A stretch of DNA of 4,219 nucleotides from a virus (lineage: Duplodnaviria > Heunggongvirae > Uroviricota > Caudoviricetes), in IMG/VR virus record IMGVR_UViG_2713896899_000012; one strand, given 5' to 3'. Positions 85 through 4,214 of this stretch are shown piece after piece; the first letter of the stretch is position 1, and every line of letters begins with the position of its first letter. A model generated the notes under the pieces. That model ran no database searches and was not told where the DNA came from. It saw only the letters and a list, made by a program, of their open reading frames with translations. The position numbers were made by a program, and so were the translations under genes.

Positions 85-789
85 TCACGAATTTTTCAGC
101 CACTCCCTTGCCTCGATGTCATCCAGATGACGAGATTGCTTCAGAATACCAGCCACATACTCCACCTTTGCTACTTGATGATAAGGCAACGTTATAGGCC
201 TGTGGTCCTGGTTAATGCTTGTAAATTGGTATTCTCCATCTCTGTCATAGCCAAGAACCTTAATCATGTTGTGTCCTTCAACGGTTCTGACAAACACCTC
301 ATCACCCGGGAATACTTTGGTGTTAGGCTCAATGAGTACATATTCTCCTGATTTTATTCTGGGCCACATGCTGTCTCCTTTCACACGAAGACCAAAGGCA
401 TCTGGATCATCGCTATAAATTTTGAGCCACCCATCGCGTTCTTCGGTCATCTCGATGGCACCATCAACACCAAGAATTGCCTCACCAACCACGCGCACTA
501 ACCCTTTTCTTACCTGACCGACAAAAGTTAAAGAATCTGAGCATGATGCAATTGGTGTTACATCATGTACCAAATCAAGCCACCCATTAGGTAACCCAAG
601 TGCGGCTTCGAATTTTCTTGCTAGTTTATCCCCTATGTTTCGAGTGCTTTTTTCACCGGAGACTTGCGTGAGTTGAGAAGGGCTAACTCCAAGCTTATCG
701 GCAAAGCTTGCATTAGTGTTACCCGCGATTTTTTTATGCTCATCTAGCAAAAACGCCAGATTCGATTTGCGAATATCTTTGTTTTCCAT
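85..789 (-). CDS. cI: CI-like phage repressor (N-terminal XRE-type HTH, C-terminal LexA/S24-like autopeptidase domain)
   Basis: 234-aa ORF. N-terminal segment NASFADKLGVSPSQLTQVSGEKSTRNIGDKLARKFEAAL looks like an XRE-family helix-turn-helix. C-terminal half has the S24 catalytic serine motif GDSMWP (Ser140) and a lysine 37 residues later (HNMIKVL, Lys177), the same Ser-Lys spacing as LexA. SD GAGGGAG on the minus strand (799-805) precedes ATG at 789. Divergent from a Cro-like gene, as in lambdoid immunity regions. Symbol is by functional analogy only. Confidence 0.88.
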   Translation of the reverse strand: MENKDIRKSNLAFLLDEHKKIAGNTNASFADKLGVSPSQLTQVSGEKSTRNIGDKLARKFEAALGLPNGWLDLVHDVTPIASCSDSLTFVGQVRKGLVRVVGEAILGVDGAIEMTEERDGWLKIYSDDPDAFGLRVKGDSMWPRIKSGEYVLIEPNTKVFPGDEVFVRTVEGHNMIKVLGYDRDGEYQFTSINQDHRPITLPYHQVAKVEYVAGILKQSRHLDDIEAREWLKNS

Positions 790-902: not shown

Positions 903-1136
903 ATGAGTAATGAACTACTACGCTGGCGAAAAGAGGCTTCTAGTGAGGAATGGAAGCGACTCGCCGCATTAGCGAATACTTCAGTTGGCTATCTTGATCA
1001 GATTGCATATGGCTTTCGAAGAGCTTCCCCAGATAAAGCGAATGCAATCGAAGAAGCCACTCGTAATTTCACGGGTTATAAACCTGTGAAAAAGGAAAAT
1101 CTGGTGTTCGTATCGCGTAGAGCATCAGCAGCATAA
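903..1136 (+). CDS. cro: Cro-like small HTH DNA-binding protein (Cro/YdaS-like)
   Basis: 77-aa ORF, first rightward gene divergent from the repressor. SD GGAGG 5 nt upstream of ATG. Segment TSVGYLDQIAYGFRRASPDKANAIEEATR follows the pattern I recall for YdaS/Cro-like prophage regulators (…AIE.ATR). Assignment rests on position and size plus this motif. Confidence 0.75.
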   Translation: MSNELLRWRKEASSEEWKRLAALANTSVGYLDQIAYGFRRASPDKANAIEEATRNFTGYKPVKKENLVFVSRRASAA

Positions 1137-1264: not shown

Positions 1265-1297
1265 ATCTTAAGAAATGGAACAAACAAGTTACAGCAA
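1265..1297 (-). promoter_or_regulatory. PRE-like CII-dependent leftward promoter (TTGC-N6-TTGT repeat plus -10)
   Basis: On the minus strand, TTGC (1297-1294), N6, TTGT (1287-1284), then 13 nt, then TAAGAT (1270-1265). Lambda PRE is TTGC-N6-TTGC, 13 nt, AAGTAT, and likewise sits in the first codons of cII. Here the repeat lies in cII codons 3-8. Confidence 0.45.
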
Positions 1298-1571
1298 ACT
1301 ATCACAGCGTGACGTTGATCGCGCAGAAACAGATTTACTCATCAACCTGTCAACGCTTACCCAGCGCGGTCTGGCAAAGATGATTGGCTGTCATGAATCG
1401 AAGATAAGCAGAACGGACTGGAGATTTATTGCTTCGGTCTTGTGTGCTTTTGGAATGGCATCAGACATCAGTCCGATTAGCAGGGCTTTTAAGTATGCGC
1501 TTGATGGAATCACAAAGAAAAAACGCCCGGCGGCAACCGAGCGTTCTGAACAAATCCAAATGGAATTTTAA
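1275..1571 (+). CDS. cII: CII-like transcriptional activator
   Basis: 98-aa ORF. C-terminal 19 residues KKRPAATERSEQIQMEF match the lambda CII C-terminus as I recall it. Central HTH-like segment GCHESKISRTDW parallels lambda VDKSQISRWKRDW. N-terminal third is divergent. Weak SD (AAGAA). Located after cro and the nut-like site, as in lambda. Confidence 0.88.
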   Translation: MEQTSYSKLSQRDVDRAETDLLINLSTLTQRGLAKMIGCHESKISRTDWRFIASVLCAFGMASDISPISRAFKYALDGITKKKRPAATERSEQIQMEF

Positions 1572-1593
1572 TAACATCCAACGAGGTAATTAT

Positions 1594-1866
1594 ATGCGAA
1601 ACAAAGGCTTTAATCCACCTGATACACACAAAGAAGCTAAGCGTTTGCGCTTCCTTCGTTCCATTGATGAAAGAACTCAAATCTCTTTTGTGAAAGTTGC
1701 CAGAACTGAGCTTCTGAAGGCTGAGGCGAGGGCGTTGCTCCCGTCTCTACCAAAAGAGGATGGATATACGTTCATTCCAAACGCATTTCTGGAAAAGCTT
1801 CTCAAAGAAGACATATCCGTAAGTCAGTTTAACGATGTTCTTAAGGTCTTTCGTCAAGGCAGGTAG
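1594..1866 (+). CDS. Hypothetical small protein (90 aa) between cII and the O-like gene
   Basis: ORF in the track runs 1429-1866, but its 5' part overlaps cII in another frame. The in-frame ATG at 1594 is preceded by GAGGT (1583-1587) and sits 22 nt after the cII stop. Product MRNKGFNPPDTHKEAKRLRFLRSIDERTQISFVKVARTELLKAEARALLPSLPKEDGYTFIPNAFLEKLLKEDISVSQFNDVLKVFRQGR is basic and predicted helical, with no motif I recognise. Stop at 1864-1866, 2 nt before the O-like start. Confidence 0.55.
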   Translation: MRNKGFNPPDTHKEAKRLRFLRSIDERTQISFVKVARTELLKAEARALLPSLPKEDGYTFIPNAFLEKLLKEDISVSQFNDVLKVFRQGR

Positions 1867-1868
1867 TT

Positions 1869-2816
1869 ATGAGCAATACAGCAAAAATCTACGATTTCAG
1901 CGCCGCACACGAGCGCAGGAGCAACAGGATGGAGAACCAGAAAACTGGTTACATTCCGTTGTACCGGAGCATTCTGAAACAGTCATGGGCGAAAGATGTT
2001 TATCTTCGCACCCTGTGGGAAAACCTTCTCCTGAATGCCGCCAGAAAGCCATACAAAGCGAATTTCAAAGGTCATGAATGGCATCTGCAACCCGGTCAAC
2101 TGGTTGTGACAGCAGCTGATTTAGGTCTTCAGTTATGCGACAGACATGGCAAGCCAGCAAGCCGTGATCAGGTTGAGCGGATGCTTCAGGTTTTTGTGAA
2201 AGAGGGGATGATCTCCATTGATGGAGAGAAGCAAAAAGGTCGTGTGATCACCATCACAAATTACCATGAATATGCTCAAAAAATGGACGATTCACCCGCA
2301 CATGAAGCCGCACAAACAACCGCACATGATGCCGCACATGACGAAGCCAGTAATGGCGCGGCTTTCAGAGTACATGCCGCACATGAAAGCGCACATGAAG
2401 CCGCACAAACAACCGCACATCATGAACAAGAAGGTATTAACAAGAATATAAATAATACCCCCCTACCCCCCAATGGGGGAGGCGATGGGCAGGTTAAACC
2501 TGAACGTCGCAAGGCAGAACGCATCGACTACGAATCCTTCCTGAACGCCTACAACACCGAAGTCGGTGACAGACTTCCACACGCTGTTGCGGTCAACGAG
2601 AAACGCAAGCGTCGCCTGAAGAAAATCATTCCGCAACTGAAAACGCCAAACGTGGACGGTTTCAGAGCGTATGTCAGGGCGTTTGTGCATCAGGCCAAGC
2701 CGTTTTACTTCGGAGACAACGACACGGGCTGGACGGCCGATTTTGATTACCTGCTGAGGGAAGACTCGTTAACGGGAGTTCGGGAAGGGAAGTTTGCAGA
2801 CAGGGGGATTGCATGA
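1869..2816 (+). CDS. O: Replication initiator protein, lambda O-like (origin-binding) with embedded origin
   Basis: 315-aa ORF. N-terminus MSNTAKI parallels lambda O MTNTAKI, and the start-region DNA AATACAGCAAAAAT matches what I recall of lambda O. Position directly after cII and before a helicase gene. The middle of the gene carries an iteron array plus AT-rich tract, as in ori-lambda. Beyond the N-terminal heptapeptide the protein is divergent from lambda O as I recall it. Confidence 0.82.
   Translation: MSNTAKIYDFSAAHERRSNRMENQKTGYIPLYRSILKQSWAKDVYLRTLWENLLLNAARKPYKANFKGHEWHLQPGQLVVTAADLGLQLCDRHGKPASRDQVERMLQVFVKEGMISIDGEKQKGRVITITNYHEYAQKMDDSPAHEAAQTTAHDAAHDEASNGAAFRVHAAHESAHEAAQTTAHHEQEGINKNINNTPLPPNGGGDGQVKPERRKAERIDYESFLNAYNTEVGDRLPHAVAVNEKRKRRLKKIIPQLKTPNVDGFRAYVRAFVHQAKPFYFGDNDTGWTADFDYLLREDSLTGVREGKFADRGIA
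2296..2426. repeat. Iteron-like direct repeat array (putative phage replication origin iterons) inside the O-like gene
   Basis: About eight tandem ~12-bp units beginning CCGCACA: CCGCACATGAAG (2296-2307), CCGCACAAACAA (2308-2319), CCGCACATGATG (2320-2331), CCGCACATGACGAAG (2332-2346), then after a 30-bp gap CCGCACATGAAAG, CGCACATGAAG, CCGCACAAACAA, CCGCACATCATGAA (2377-2426). Includes a perfect 31-bp direct repeat CGCACATGAAGCCGCACAAACAACCGCACAT at 2297-2327 and 2390-2420. Confidence 0.6.
2427..2479. other. AT-rich tract followed by GC-rich palindrome adjacent to iterons (putative origin unwinding region)
   Basis: AT-rich stretch ACAAGAAGGTATTAACAAGAATATAAATAATAC (2427-2457), then CCCCCCTA and palindrome CCCCC(C)AATGGGGG (2466-2479). 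The order iterons, AT-rich region, palindrome mirrors ori-lambda organisation. Confidence 0.5.
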
Positions 2817-4214
2817 GACAGGATATCGAAGCGAGCGTTATCGGCGGTCTGCTGATTGGTNNNNNNNNNNNNNNNNNNNNNNNNNGGATTAACACCAACC
2901 GCCAGTGACGTTCTGGCAACGCTTGAGCCGGAAGCGTTTTCAATTCCGCTCTACCGGAAAGCCTTCGAGGTTATCCGCAAGCAGGCGCGAAACAGAAACC
3001 TAATCGACGCGCTGATGGTTGCCGAAGCGTGCGGAGAGGAGCATTTCACGTCAATCCTGATGACCAGCAAAAACTGCCCGAGTGCCGCAAACCTGAAGGG
3101 ATATGCCGGAATGGTCGCGGATAACTATCACCGCCGTCTGGTGCTGGAAATCATGGATGAAATGCGTGAACCAATTCAGAGCGGAACCATCGACGCATCG
3201 AGTCAGGCGATGGATGAACTTGTAAAGCGTCTTTCAGCCATCAGAAAGCCCCGTGACGAGGTTAAACCTGTACGGTTAGGGGAAATCATCACTGACTACA
3301 CTGACACGCTTGACAGGCGTCTGAGGAACGGAGAAGAGTCAGATACCCTGAAGACCGGAATCGAAGAACTTGACGCCATCACCGGAGGGATGAACGCAGA
3401 AGACCTGGTGATTATCGCTGCTCGTCCTGGTATGGGGAAAACCGAACTGGCGCTGAAGATTGCCGAAGGTGTTGCAAGCCGCGTTATTCCTGGTTCTGAC
3501 GTCCGGCGCGGAGTGTTGATTTTCTCGATGGAAATGAGCGCATTGCAGATTGCAGAGCGGAGCATTGCCAACGCCGGGAGGATGTCGGTTAGCGTGCTGC
3601 GAAATCCTGCATCGATGGATGACGAAGGCTGGGCGCGTGTTGCTAACGGCATGAGTCAGCTTGCAGATTTGGATGTATGGGTAGTCGATGCCTCGCGGTT
3701 ATCGGTCGAAGAAATTCGCTCAATTGCAGAGCGGCACAAACAGGAAAATCCAAACCTGTCACTAATCATGGTGGATTATCTTGGACTGATTGAGAAGCCG
3801 AAAGCAGACCGCAACGACCTCGCAATTGCTCACATCTCAGGAAGCCTGAAGGCGATGGCGAAAGACCTGAAAACGCCTGTTATCTCCCTGAGTCAGCTTT
3901 CACGCGATGTTGAGAAGCGACCAAACAAACGCCCGACAAACGCAGATTTGCGTGATTCAGGAAGCATTGAACAGGACGCAGACTCAATCATCATGCTCTA
4001 TCGGGAAGCGGTATATGACGAGAACAGTAGCGCCGCGCCATTTGCTGAAATCATTGTGACGAAAAACCGTTTTGGTTCACTTGGTACGGTTTACCAGCGG
4101 TTCTGCAACGGACACTTTGTTGCATGTGACCAGGATGAAGCCAGACAGATTTGCACAGCATCAAATGCACCTGCTGCGCGTGGCAGACGATATGCACAAG
4201 GGGCTGACGTATGA
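2813..4214 (+). CDS. dnaB: DnaB-family replicative DNA helicase (phage-encoded), interrupted by an N run
   Basis: ATG at 2813 overlaps the O-like stop (ATGA), with SD AGGGGGA at 2802-2808. N-terminus [16 protein letters not shown] resembles the DnaB N-terminus (…SIEAEQSVLGGLMLD). After the N run: Walker [10 protein letters not shown] (GMGKT at 3429-3443), Walker B-like [11 protein letters not shown], and C-terminal [38 protein letters not shown], typical of the DnaB family. Reading frame before the gap (phase 2) and after it (phase 0; track ORF 2856-4214) do not connect across exactly 25 nt. Confidence 0.85.
2861..2885. other. Run of 25 ambiguous bases (N) - masked or unsequenced segment within helicase gene
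   Basis: Directly visible as n x25 in the sequence. Confidence 0.99.

What the first reader, a model, noticed from the sequence alone, without database searches (positions are those of the whole stretch)
1594..1866. Unassigned 90-aa ORF between cII and the O-like gene
Canonical lambda has cII directly followed by O. Here a tightly packed ORF with its own SD encodes a basic, probably helical 90-aa protein that I cannot assign to any family by motif. Its place in the early-right operon, between the lysis-lysogeny regulator and replication genes, suggests a regulatory or host-takeover role. It is the best candidate for uncharacterised function in this window, though it may simply be a known hypothetical phage protein.
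Basis: partly seen in the sequence, partly recalled or inferred. Interest (0 to 1): 0.5.

Follow-up and report, generated by a model that had tools for sequence, protein, structure and literature searches.

The report
Small conserved gene ahead of phage initiator
The 90-codon reading frame is a real, selectively maintained phage gene in a slot just upstream of the replication initiator that was already known to hold small genes; its function is still unknown, and its tail resembles the first third of the initiator's own DNA-binding domain.

Summary
The ORF at 1594-1866 is real. It has a GAGG Shine-Dalgarno sequence, starts 22 nt after cII and ends 2 nt before the O-like initiator. Six diverged alleles give a median dN/dS of 0.12, and the length holds at 90 aa in 93 of 99 loci.

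It is already catalogued as PHROG 2519 (unknown function) and labelled "hypothetical protein" in 279 of 5426 complete E. coli genomes. The slot is also known: Hayes et al. 2012 describe a cII-oop-"orf"-O-P layout in lambdoid phages, with lambda as the exception (P22/HK022 orf48, HK97 gp53).

Two things are new here. Residues 54-88 are homologous to only the first ~35 positions of the Phage_rep_O winged-helix domain. The basic N-terminal half may be related to P22 orf48 (DUF2740), and a Proteus prophage carries the two halves as separate genes.

In about 20 contexts across Enterobacterales the gene always abuts an O-type initiator (2-nt gap, or 4- or 8-nt overlap), with or without cII upstream. 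Close relatives of the same initiator lack it, so it is dispensable.

My best guess, by inference only, is a non-essential partner or modulator of the initiator. Interest is modest.

The parts
1583..1586 (+). Shine-Dalgarno GAGG of the 90-aa ORF
   Evidence: Read from the sequence. The block GGTnAATTATATGCGAAA is invariant in 8 diverged loci and is homologous to the RBS region that precedes O in lambda and orf48 in P22/HK022.
1594..1866 (+). 90-aa protein gene (PHROG 2519), stop included
   Evidence: E 3.4e-57, profile 1-90/90. Purifying selection. Found in 58 phage records and 279 E. coli genomes.
1594..1752 (+). N-terminal basic helical module (codons 1-53, pI 10.9); possibly related to P22 orf48/DUF2740
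   Evidence: AF2 helices 10-23 and 26-51; pI. Absent from the 59-62-aa Providencia, Xenorhabdus and Proteus versions. hhalign against an orf48 alignment gives E 1.6e-3, probability 16%, which is inconclusive.
1753..1863 (+). C-terminal conserved core (codons 54-90), homologous to the first ~35 positions of the Phage_rep_O winged-helix domain
   Evidence: Pfam PF04492 positions 6-39 of 95, E 0.01. 17 of 20 family members hit it, best E 5e-5. hhalign against lambda-type O gives E 4e-5, probability 70%. BLASTP against lambda O residues 26-59 gives E 1e-4. I61, P62, N63, L83 and F86 are invariant.
1856..1863 (+). AAGGCAGG, the likely Shine-Dalgarno of the O-like gene, inside the last codons of the ORF
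   Evidence: Nearly invariant at nucleotide level in 8 diverged loci. Lies 5-9 nt before ATG 1869.
1869..2816 (+). O-like replication initiator (P22 gp18-like), the constant downstream neighbour
   Evidence: PF04492 E 3.4e-15 and phrog_345. Its first codons are homologous to those of lambda O. Synteny.
1275..1571 (+). cII gene, the upstream neighbour in Enterobacteriaceae
   Evidence: PF05269 E 2e-34. The last ~55 nt are identical to lambda.
1518..1547 (-). oop-like intrinsic terminator (12-bp stem plus U-run) inside the 3' end of cII
   Evidence: Identical to the lambda oop terminator region.
1589..1594 (-). Candidate -10 (TATAAT on the minus strand) of a pO-like promoter overlapping the ORF start codon
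   Evidence: Read from the sequence. Homologous to the lambda pO -10, where replacing ATTAT (38684-38688) inactivates pO (PMC3349717). The P22 record annotates the oop promoter across the orf48 start. The hexamer is conserved in 8 diverged loci. No -35 passed the consensus scan.

Best explanation
Shown: the ORF is a real protein gene of the early-right operon, with no promoter or terminator of its own. It occupies the 'orf' slot between oop/pO and the O-type initiator that most lambdoid phages other than lambda fill with a small gene. Relative to lambda, it sits exactly between the pO/RBS block and the ATG of O. It therefore uses the RBS that serves O in lambda, and the Shine-Dalgarno of O lies in its own last codons. 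The protein has two parts. The first is a basic helical N-module. The second is a near-neutral to acidic C-module (G-Y/F-x-F-IPN-x-F-L-E-x-LL-K-x-D-L-S-x-x-QF-N-x-VL-x-x-F) that is homologous to the first strand-helix-helix of the O winged-helix domain. The protein stops before the part of that domain containing the recognition helix and wing. Inferred: it does not bind origin iterons itself. It acts in trans as a dispensable partner or modulator of the initiator. It is made in a fixed ratio with O through translational coupling, and it contacts O or an O partner through the surface it shares with the O N-terminus. That contact could tune O oligomerisation at the origin or O stability.
For: Coding and selection: dN/dS 0.12, codon-position pattern 34/27/74, frame controls; length conserved down to about 50% identity, and every relative ends just after the same helix. 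Linkage: in about 20 distinct contexts (E. coli, Salmonella, Scandinavium, Pseudescherichia, Klebsiella, Cronobacter, Serratia, Providencia, Xenorhabdus, Proteus) it always lies directly upstream of an O-type initiator, with a 2-nt gap or a 4- or 8-nt overlap. The initiator N-domain is of at least three kinds, and the helicase partner is DnaB-like, lambda P or a primase-helicase. In Providencia and Xenorhabdus there is no cII upstream, so the link is to O and not to cII. Partial O homology. The conserved core is acidic and the basic N-module is optional, which argues against DNA binding as the shared function. No own promoter or terminator was found. Insertion geometry.
Against: The O homology covers only ~35 residues, lies below Pfam's gathering score, and reaches 70% hhalign probability. 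Initiators 73-76% identical in their N-domain exist without this gene and carry unrelated genes in the slot, so any role is accessory. Constant adjacency could also come from recombination between conserved flanks (the oop block and the first 60 nt of O) rather than from function. In most Enterobacteriaceae the adjacent O is not the lambda-like subtype that the C-module resembles most. Several gene callers start O at an internal ATG (window 1929) that has its own GGAG, which would loosen the coupling.
Confidence: 0.4

Rival explanations
1. It is an accessory cargo gene, such as an anti-defence or host-takeover factor, that merely sits in a recombination-prone slot and has no role in replication.
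For: The slot holds unrelated genes in related phages: a KilAC antirepressor, a 265-aa regulator, orf48 and HK97 gp53. The gene is dispensable for this initiator type. Both flanks are conserved sequence blocks that could act as recombination linkers.
Against: It has no promoter or terminator of its own, unlike typical morons. It was never found outside the pre-O position in about 20 contexts, including loci without the cII/oop flank. The core resembles the initiator itself. There is no real PADLOC hit.
Confidence: 0.2
2. It works only in cis, as a translated leader whose translation delivers ribosomes to the O start, and the peptide itself is irrelevant.
For: The stop-start gap is 2 nt, or the genes overlap by 4 or 8 nt, and the O Shine-Dalgarno lies inside the ORF. 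The ORF has taken over the RBS that serves O in lambda.
Against: The peptide sequence is under strong purifying selection (dN/dS 0.12), with invariant residues down to about 45% identity. No RNA structure masks the O start (z = 0.52). Coupling probably happens, but it cannot be the whole function.
Confidence: 0.1
3. It is a lysis-lysogeny modulator acting through the cII/oop axis, for example by affecting CII or pO activity.
For: It lies next to cII in Enterobacteriaceae. The candidate pO -10 overlaps its start codon, and the oop terminator is conserved.
Against: The Providencia and Xenorhabdus homologues have no cII or oop upstream yet keep the pre-O position. It has no HTH and no similarity to any regulator.
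Confidence: 0.1
4. It is a non-functional relic: the 5' stump of a lambda-type O gene left behind when the replication module was swapped.
For: The C-module looks like residues 26-60 of an O protein and stops abruptly. The adjacent O in this window is a different subtype.
Against: dN/dS is 0.12 with synonymous sites near saturation, and the ORF is intact in 93 of 99 loci. An exhaustive profile search of 1.84 billion representatives found no full-length parent. Short versions coexist with an intact lambda-type O. A relic origin long ago is possible, but the gene is functional now.
Confidence: 0.03

Closest known systems
PHROG 2519 (unknown function): Kapi1_024 and unnamed ORFs in CUS-3, HF4s, JEP4, Gally, TL-2011a and 48 Stx2a phages
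   Same: Full-length match (E 3.4e-57) at 98-100% protein identity, in the same position.
   Different: Nothing differs; this is that family. It has never been characterised. The Kapi1 record notes only 'phrog_2519; CDD:Phage_rep_O'.
P22/HK022 orf48 (Pfam DUF2740), the 'orf' between oop and gene 18/O (Hayes et al. 2012, PMC3349717)
   Same: Same slot, same upstream pO/RBS block, overlap with the initiator start, small and basic (pI 10.4 against 10.9 for the N-module). A shared H-K-x-x-x-R-x-R-F-L-x-S motif sits at the same residue numbers.
   Different: orf48 has 48 aa and no C-module. The sequence link is weak (hhalign E 1.6e-3, probability 16%; no Pfam hit). Its function is also unknown.
Lambda O / Phage_rep_O (PF04492) origin-binding winged-helix domain
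   Same: Residues 54-88 align with O residues 26-60, at profile positions 6-39.
   Different: Only about a third of the domain is present. The part containing the recognition helix and wing, the linker and the helicase-loader-binding C-domain are all missing, and the score is below the gathering threshold. It is not an initiator.
Truncated paralogues that modulate their full-length relative (Tn5 Inh, short pi forms of R6K; recalled from general knowledge, not checked here)
   Same: Concept only: a fragment that shares one surface with the full protein and is made from the same operon.
   Different: Those are made from the same gene by internal starts, and they keep their DNA-binding or dimerisation domains. 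Here the fragment is a separate gene that has diverged for a long time, and no interaction has been shown.
Leader peptides coupled to rep genes (IncFII tap, IncB/I repY; recalled from general knowledge)
   Same: An upstream ORF whose stop abuts or overlaps the initiator start.
   Different: Those peptides are short and their sequence is unconstrained, and they act through RNA structure. Here the 90-aa sequence is conserved and no structure was detected.

Membership tests
PHROG 2519 | Full-length significant match to the family profile | tested here: met
   E 3.4e-57, residues 1-90 on profile 1-90/90. The Providencia 62-aa version matches profile 35-87 at E 4.7e-17.
Pfam Phage_rep_O (PF04492) | Score at or above the gathering threshold (28.7 bits) | tested here: not met
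   16.8 bits, E 0.01. The best of the 20 relatives reaches E 5.2e-5, and 17 of 20 hit it.
Pfam Phage_rep_O (PF04492) | Complete ~95-position winged-helix domain, including the recognition helix and wing | tested here: not met
   Only profile positions 6-39 are matched, and the protein ends 2 residues later.
Lambda-type O initiators | C-terminal domain that recruits the helicase or loader, and origin iterons within the gene | tested here: not met
   Absent from the 90-aa protein. Both are found in the neighbouring gene 1869-2816.
Pfam DUF2740 (P22 orf48) | Profile match at or above 27 bits | tested here: not met
   No hit at E<=10 for three N-terminal halves. P22 orf48 itself scores 98 bits.
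Pfam DUF2740 (P22 orf48) | Remote homology of the N-module by profile-profile comparison, or through intermediates | tested here: inconclusive
   hhalign of the orf48 alignment against A1 gives E 1.6e-3, probability 16%. The Proteus 58-aa gene links both sides: BLASTP to orf48 E 9e-5, hhalign to A1 E 5.9e-4.
Lambdoid 'orf' slot genes (cII-oop-orf-O-P; Hayes et al. 2012) | Small ORF located between oop/pO and the O-like gene | tested here: met
   with the description in PMC3349717.
Cis-acting coupling leader peptides | Stop codon adjacent to or overlapping the downstream start | tested here: met
   2-nt gap here; 4- or 8-nt overlaps in Serratia, Cronobacter, Klebsiella, Proteus, Providencia and Xenorhabdus.
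Cis-acting coupling leader peptides | Peptide sequence unconstrained; downstream RBS masked by RNA structure | tested here: not met
   dN/dS 0.12. Fold of 1815-1935 gives z = 0.52.
Anti-phage defence or anti-defence catalogues | Significant match to a PADLOC model | tested here: not met
   Only JetB at E 0.02, 13 bits. Anti-defence libraries were not available.

The most novel reading that the evidence does not exclude
The small genes that lambdoid phages keep directly ahead of their initiator (this family, orf48/DUF2740, HK97 gp53) would be an unrecognised third component of the replication module. This one would be a 'mini-O' built from the first third of the initiator's winged-helix domain. 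It would bind O or its partners and set the timing, stoichiometry or stability of the origin complex.
Probability: 0.25. Interest if true: 0.55.

Novelty: new member of a known kind. Interest (0 to 1): 0.3.

Why it matters
Lambda replication is a textbook system built on O and P alone, but lambda is the exception: most relatives carry a conserved small gene welded to the initiator's start, and nobody has studied it. This family occurs in about 5% of complete E. coli genomes and in the replication region of many Stx2a-converting phages, where replication efficiency governs toxin output (PMC8044961). A role in initiation would add a regulator to a classic machine and a possible handle on Stx phage induction. 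If the gene has no role in initiation, it is one more hypothetical phage gene.

Tried and rejected
- **Sequence and RNA libraries.** PDB sequence search with the family profile gave no hit. There is no solved structure for lambda O or this O-like protein. NCBIfam, PADLOC and Rfam gave nothing meaningful.
- **Search for a parent gene.** An exhaustive profile search of 1.84 billion representatives found only 15 hits, all short, and no full-length parent initiator. The two long hits (1975 and 2536 aa) are multi-stretch matches that I took to be spurious and did not inspect.
- **Frameshift fusion to O.** By eye, the O frame has a stop at 1842-1844 and I saw no slippery heptamer in 1845-1866. The geometry also differs in relatives, so I rejected this.
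- **Junction structure.** No RNA structure is significant at the ORF/O junction.
- **Eru genes.** I checked whether the ORF is a named eru gene of Stx phages; it is not mentioned. The Kapi1 papers do not discuss it. Literature searches for phrog_2519, the accession and DUF2740 found nothing functional.
- **Own promoter.** The consensus scan found none on either strand in 1200-2000.

Full report
**Setting.** The window is a lambdoid immunity and replication region. It holds a cI-like repressor (85-789, minus strand; Peptidase_S24), a cro-like gene (903-1136) and cII (1275-1571; PF05269, E 2e-34). These are followed by the 90-codon ORF (1594-1866), an O-like initiator (1869-2816; PF04492 E 3.4e-15, phrog_345) and a DnaB-like helicase (2813-4214).

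- The ORF runs from ATG 1594 to TAG 1866. GAGG lies at 1583-1586. The ORF starts 22 nt after the cII stop and ends 2 nt before the O-like ATG.
- The product is basic (pI 10.0) and predicted helical. The AF2 model has mean pLDDT 79.5, with helices at 10-23, 26-51, 63-71 and 76-88 and a short hairpin at 54-59.
- ORF length alone proves nothing, because the window also holds 106- and 118-aa antisense ORFs.
- Comparative data settle it. Six alleles at 66-86% nucleotide identity give a median dN/dS of 0.12.
- The in-frame pN/pS is 0.245, against 1.28 and 1.79 in the two shifted frames. Variable columns by codon position are 34/27/74.
- The ORF is intact at 90 aa in 93 of 99 loci.

**Distribution.**
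- The DNA is at least 99% identical in CUS-3, Kapi1, HF4s, JEP4 and TL-2011a, slightly more diverged in Gally (97.8% protein identity), and at least 99% identical in 48 Stx2a-converting phages. It occurs in 279 of 5426 complete E. coli genomes, always labelled "hypothetical protein".
- It matches PHROG 2519 (unknown function) over its full length, at E 3.4e-57.
- An exhaustive profile search of 1.84 billion representative proteins found only 15 hits.
- A second search with a broader alignment found 77 hits. The true relatives are 59-93 aa long, and all named hits come from Enterobacterales. The longer proteins are mis-called starts or deletion fusions.
- Every relative ends just after the same helix (...QFNxVLxIF...). 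No full-length protein contains this sequence.

**Anatomy.**
- The conserved core is residues 35-90. Providencia, Xenorhabdus and Proteus carry only this part, at 59-62 aa and pI 4.8-5.2.
- Residues 54-88 match positions 6-39 of the 95-position Phage_rep_O profile at E 0.01, below the gathering score. Of 20 family members, 17 hit the same family on their own, best E 5.2e-5.
- hhalign against three lambda-type O N-domains gives E 4e-5 and 70% probability, aligning ORF 54-88 with O 26-60. BLASTP against lambda O gives E 1e-4.
- The core therefore covers only the first third of the initiator's DNA-binding domain. By the usual winged-helix topology, which is general knowledge and not tested here, that would be the first strand and two helices. 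The protein ends before the rest of the domain.
- The N-terminal half (pI 10.9) is optional in the family. At the same residue numbers it carries H-K-x-x-x-R-x-R-F-L-x-S, as does P22 orf48 (Pfam DUF2740, E 2e-28).
- The statistics for that link are weak: BLASTP E 0.09 and hhalign E 1.6e-3 at 16% probability.
- A Proteus prophage has a 58-aa DUF2740-like gene (E 0.018; BLASTP to orf48 9e-5) followed, with an 8-nt overlap, by a 59-aa core-only gene and then O. That arrangement fits the 90-aa protein being a fusion of two modules. I treat this as inconclusive.

**Context.**
- In every locus examined the gene lies directly upstream of an O-type initiator. The gap is 2 nt in E. coli, Salmonella, Scandinavium and Pseudescherichia. 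The overlap is 4 nt in Serratia and Cronobacter, and 8 nt in Klebsiella, Proteus, Providencia and Xenorhabdus.
- The initiator N-domain is of at least three kinds. The next gene is a DnaB-like helicase, lambda P (L011, L012) or a primase-helicase (L016).
- cII is upstream in most loci (in Proteus a small DUF2740-like gene lies between cII and this gene), but not in Providencia or Xenorhabdus, where a cro-like gene precedes it. The constant partner is O, not cII.
- Phages whose O N-domain is 73-76% identical to this one lack the gene and have a KilAC antirepressor or a 265-aa regulator in the slot instead. The gene is therefore dispensable.
- No promoter or terminator of its own was found.

**Relation to lambda.**
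- The last ~55 nt of cII, including a 12-bp terminator hairpin on the minus strand (1547-1520), are identical to the lambda oop region.
- The block CTGGATCAATCCACAGGAGTAATTAT precedes O in lambda, orf48 in P22 and HK022, and the 90-aa ORF in these loci. It contains the pO -10, whose ATTAT is required for pO activity (PMC3349717).
- The first codons of the window's O gene (ATGAGCAATACAGCAAAAAT) are homologous to those of lambda O.
- The ORF therefore sits exactly between the pO/RBS block and the O start codon.
- Hayes et al. [quoted passage not shown] - None of these small genes has a known function. The Eru papers on Stx phage replication regions do not mention this ORF, and neither do the Kapi1 papers.

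**Mechanism.**
- What is shown: a selected protein, co-transcribed with the initiator and abutting its start, whose core copies part of the initiator's N-terminal domain.
- What I infer, at confidence 0.4: it is a non-essential partner or modulator of O. It would be made in proportion to O and would act through protein contacts rather than DNA binding. The reasons are that the core is acidic, the remainder of the winged-helix domain is missing, and the basic half is optional.
- Rivals: an unrelated cargo gene in a recombination-prone slot (0.2); a purely cis-acting coupling leader (0.1), which conflicts with the strong constraint on the peptide and the absence of junction structure (z = 0.52); a cII/oop-linked regulator (0.1), which conflicts with the loci that lack cII; and a dead relic (0.03), which conflicts with the selection data.
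- Fold and sequence searches against solved and predicted structures were uninformative. No structure of lambda O exists to map the shared segment onto. A complex prediction could not be run.

**Verdict.** The gene is real, conserved and uncharacterised, but it belongs to a catalogued family and sits in a slot already known to hold small genes. The partial-initiator core and the possible two-module build are new observations of modest interest.

Noticed in passing
window 1518-1594, minus strand: An oop-like antisense RNA unit. The terminator hairpin and U-run are identical to lambda. A perfect TATAAT on the minus strand overlaps the ORF start codon (1589-1594). The predicted RNA is about 65 nt (about 1582 to about 1518), shorter than the 77-nt lambda OOP. 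No -35 passed the consensus scan.
   Followed up: partly
window 2296-2424 (inside the O-like gene): Two clusters of four 12-nt iterons (CCGCACATGAnG-like; 2296-2343 and 2377-2424), separated by 33 nt and followed by an AT-rich stretch (about 2428-2457). This is the probable replication origin. The iterons also encode the repetitive AHEAAQTTAH peptide.
   Followed up: partly
window 1852-1945 and the same stretch in L002-L013: The last codons of the ORF and the first ~60 nt of the O gene are far more conserved at nucleotide level than the ORF body, where synonymous sites are near saturation. This could be a recombination linker, a second O start at ATG 1929 with its own GGAG, or another DNA or RNA signal. 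It is unexplained.
   Followed up: no
window 1869-2816: The O-like protein is a mosaic. Residues 190-315 are 95-98% identical to mEp213, HK544, BTP1 and phage 2851, whereas residues 1-195 have only 73-76% relatives in Klebsiella and Yersinia phages.
   Followed up: partly
window 2861-2885: A run of 25 N near the start of the DnaB-like helicase gene. It is a masked stretch or an assembly gap, and it prevents reading the true 5' end of the gene.
   Followed up: no
L106 3332-3680 (Proteus prophage): Two overlapping small genes precede O: a 58-aa basic DUF2740-like protein and a 59-aa homologue of the C-module alone. This is a split version of what may be fused in the 90-aa protein.
   Followed up: partly
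P0021 and P0025 (E. coli contigs): These proteins join residues 1-52 of the ORF to the last ~70 residues of the DnaB-like helicase. They look like prophage deletions that removed O and most of the helicase.
   Followed up: no
P22 NC_002371.2 32349-32495 and phrog_1913: P22 orf48 (DUF2740) is labelled 'tail protein' in RefSeq and PHROGs, although it sits between c1 and gene 18 in the replication region. This is almost certainly a propagated annotation error.
   Followed up: no
window 903-1136: The cro-position gene (77 aa) has no Pfam match and only a weak PHROG repressor match (phrog_35, E 5e-7), so this immunity region carries an unusual Cro type.
   Followed up: no
L083 (IMG/VR contig): My ORF picker reported a 142-aa HNH-endonuclease-like ORF close upstream of the 90-aa gene in one E. 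coli phage contig. This may be an insertion near cII. I did not verify it.
   Followed up: no
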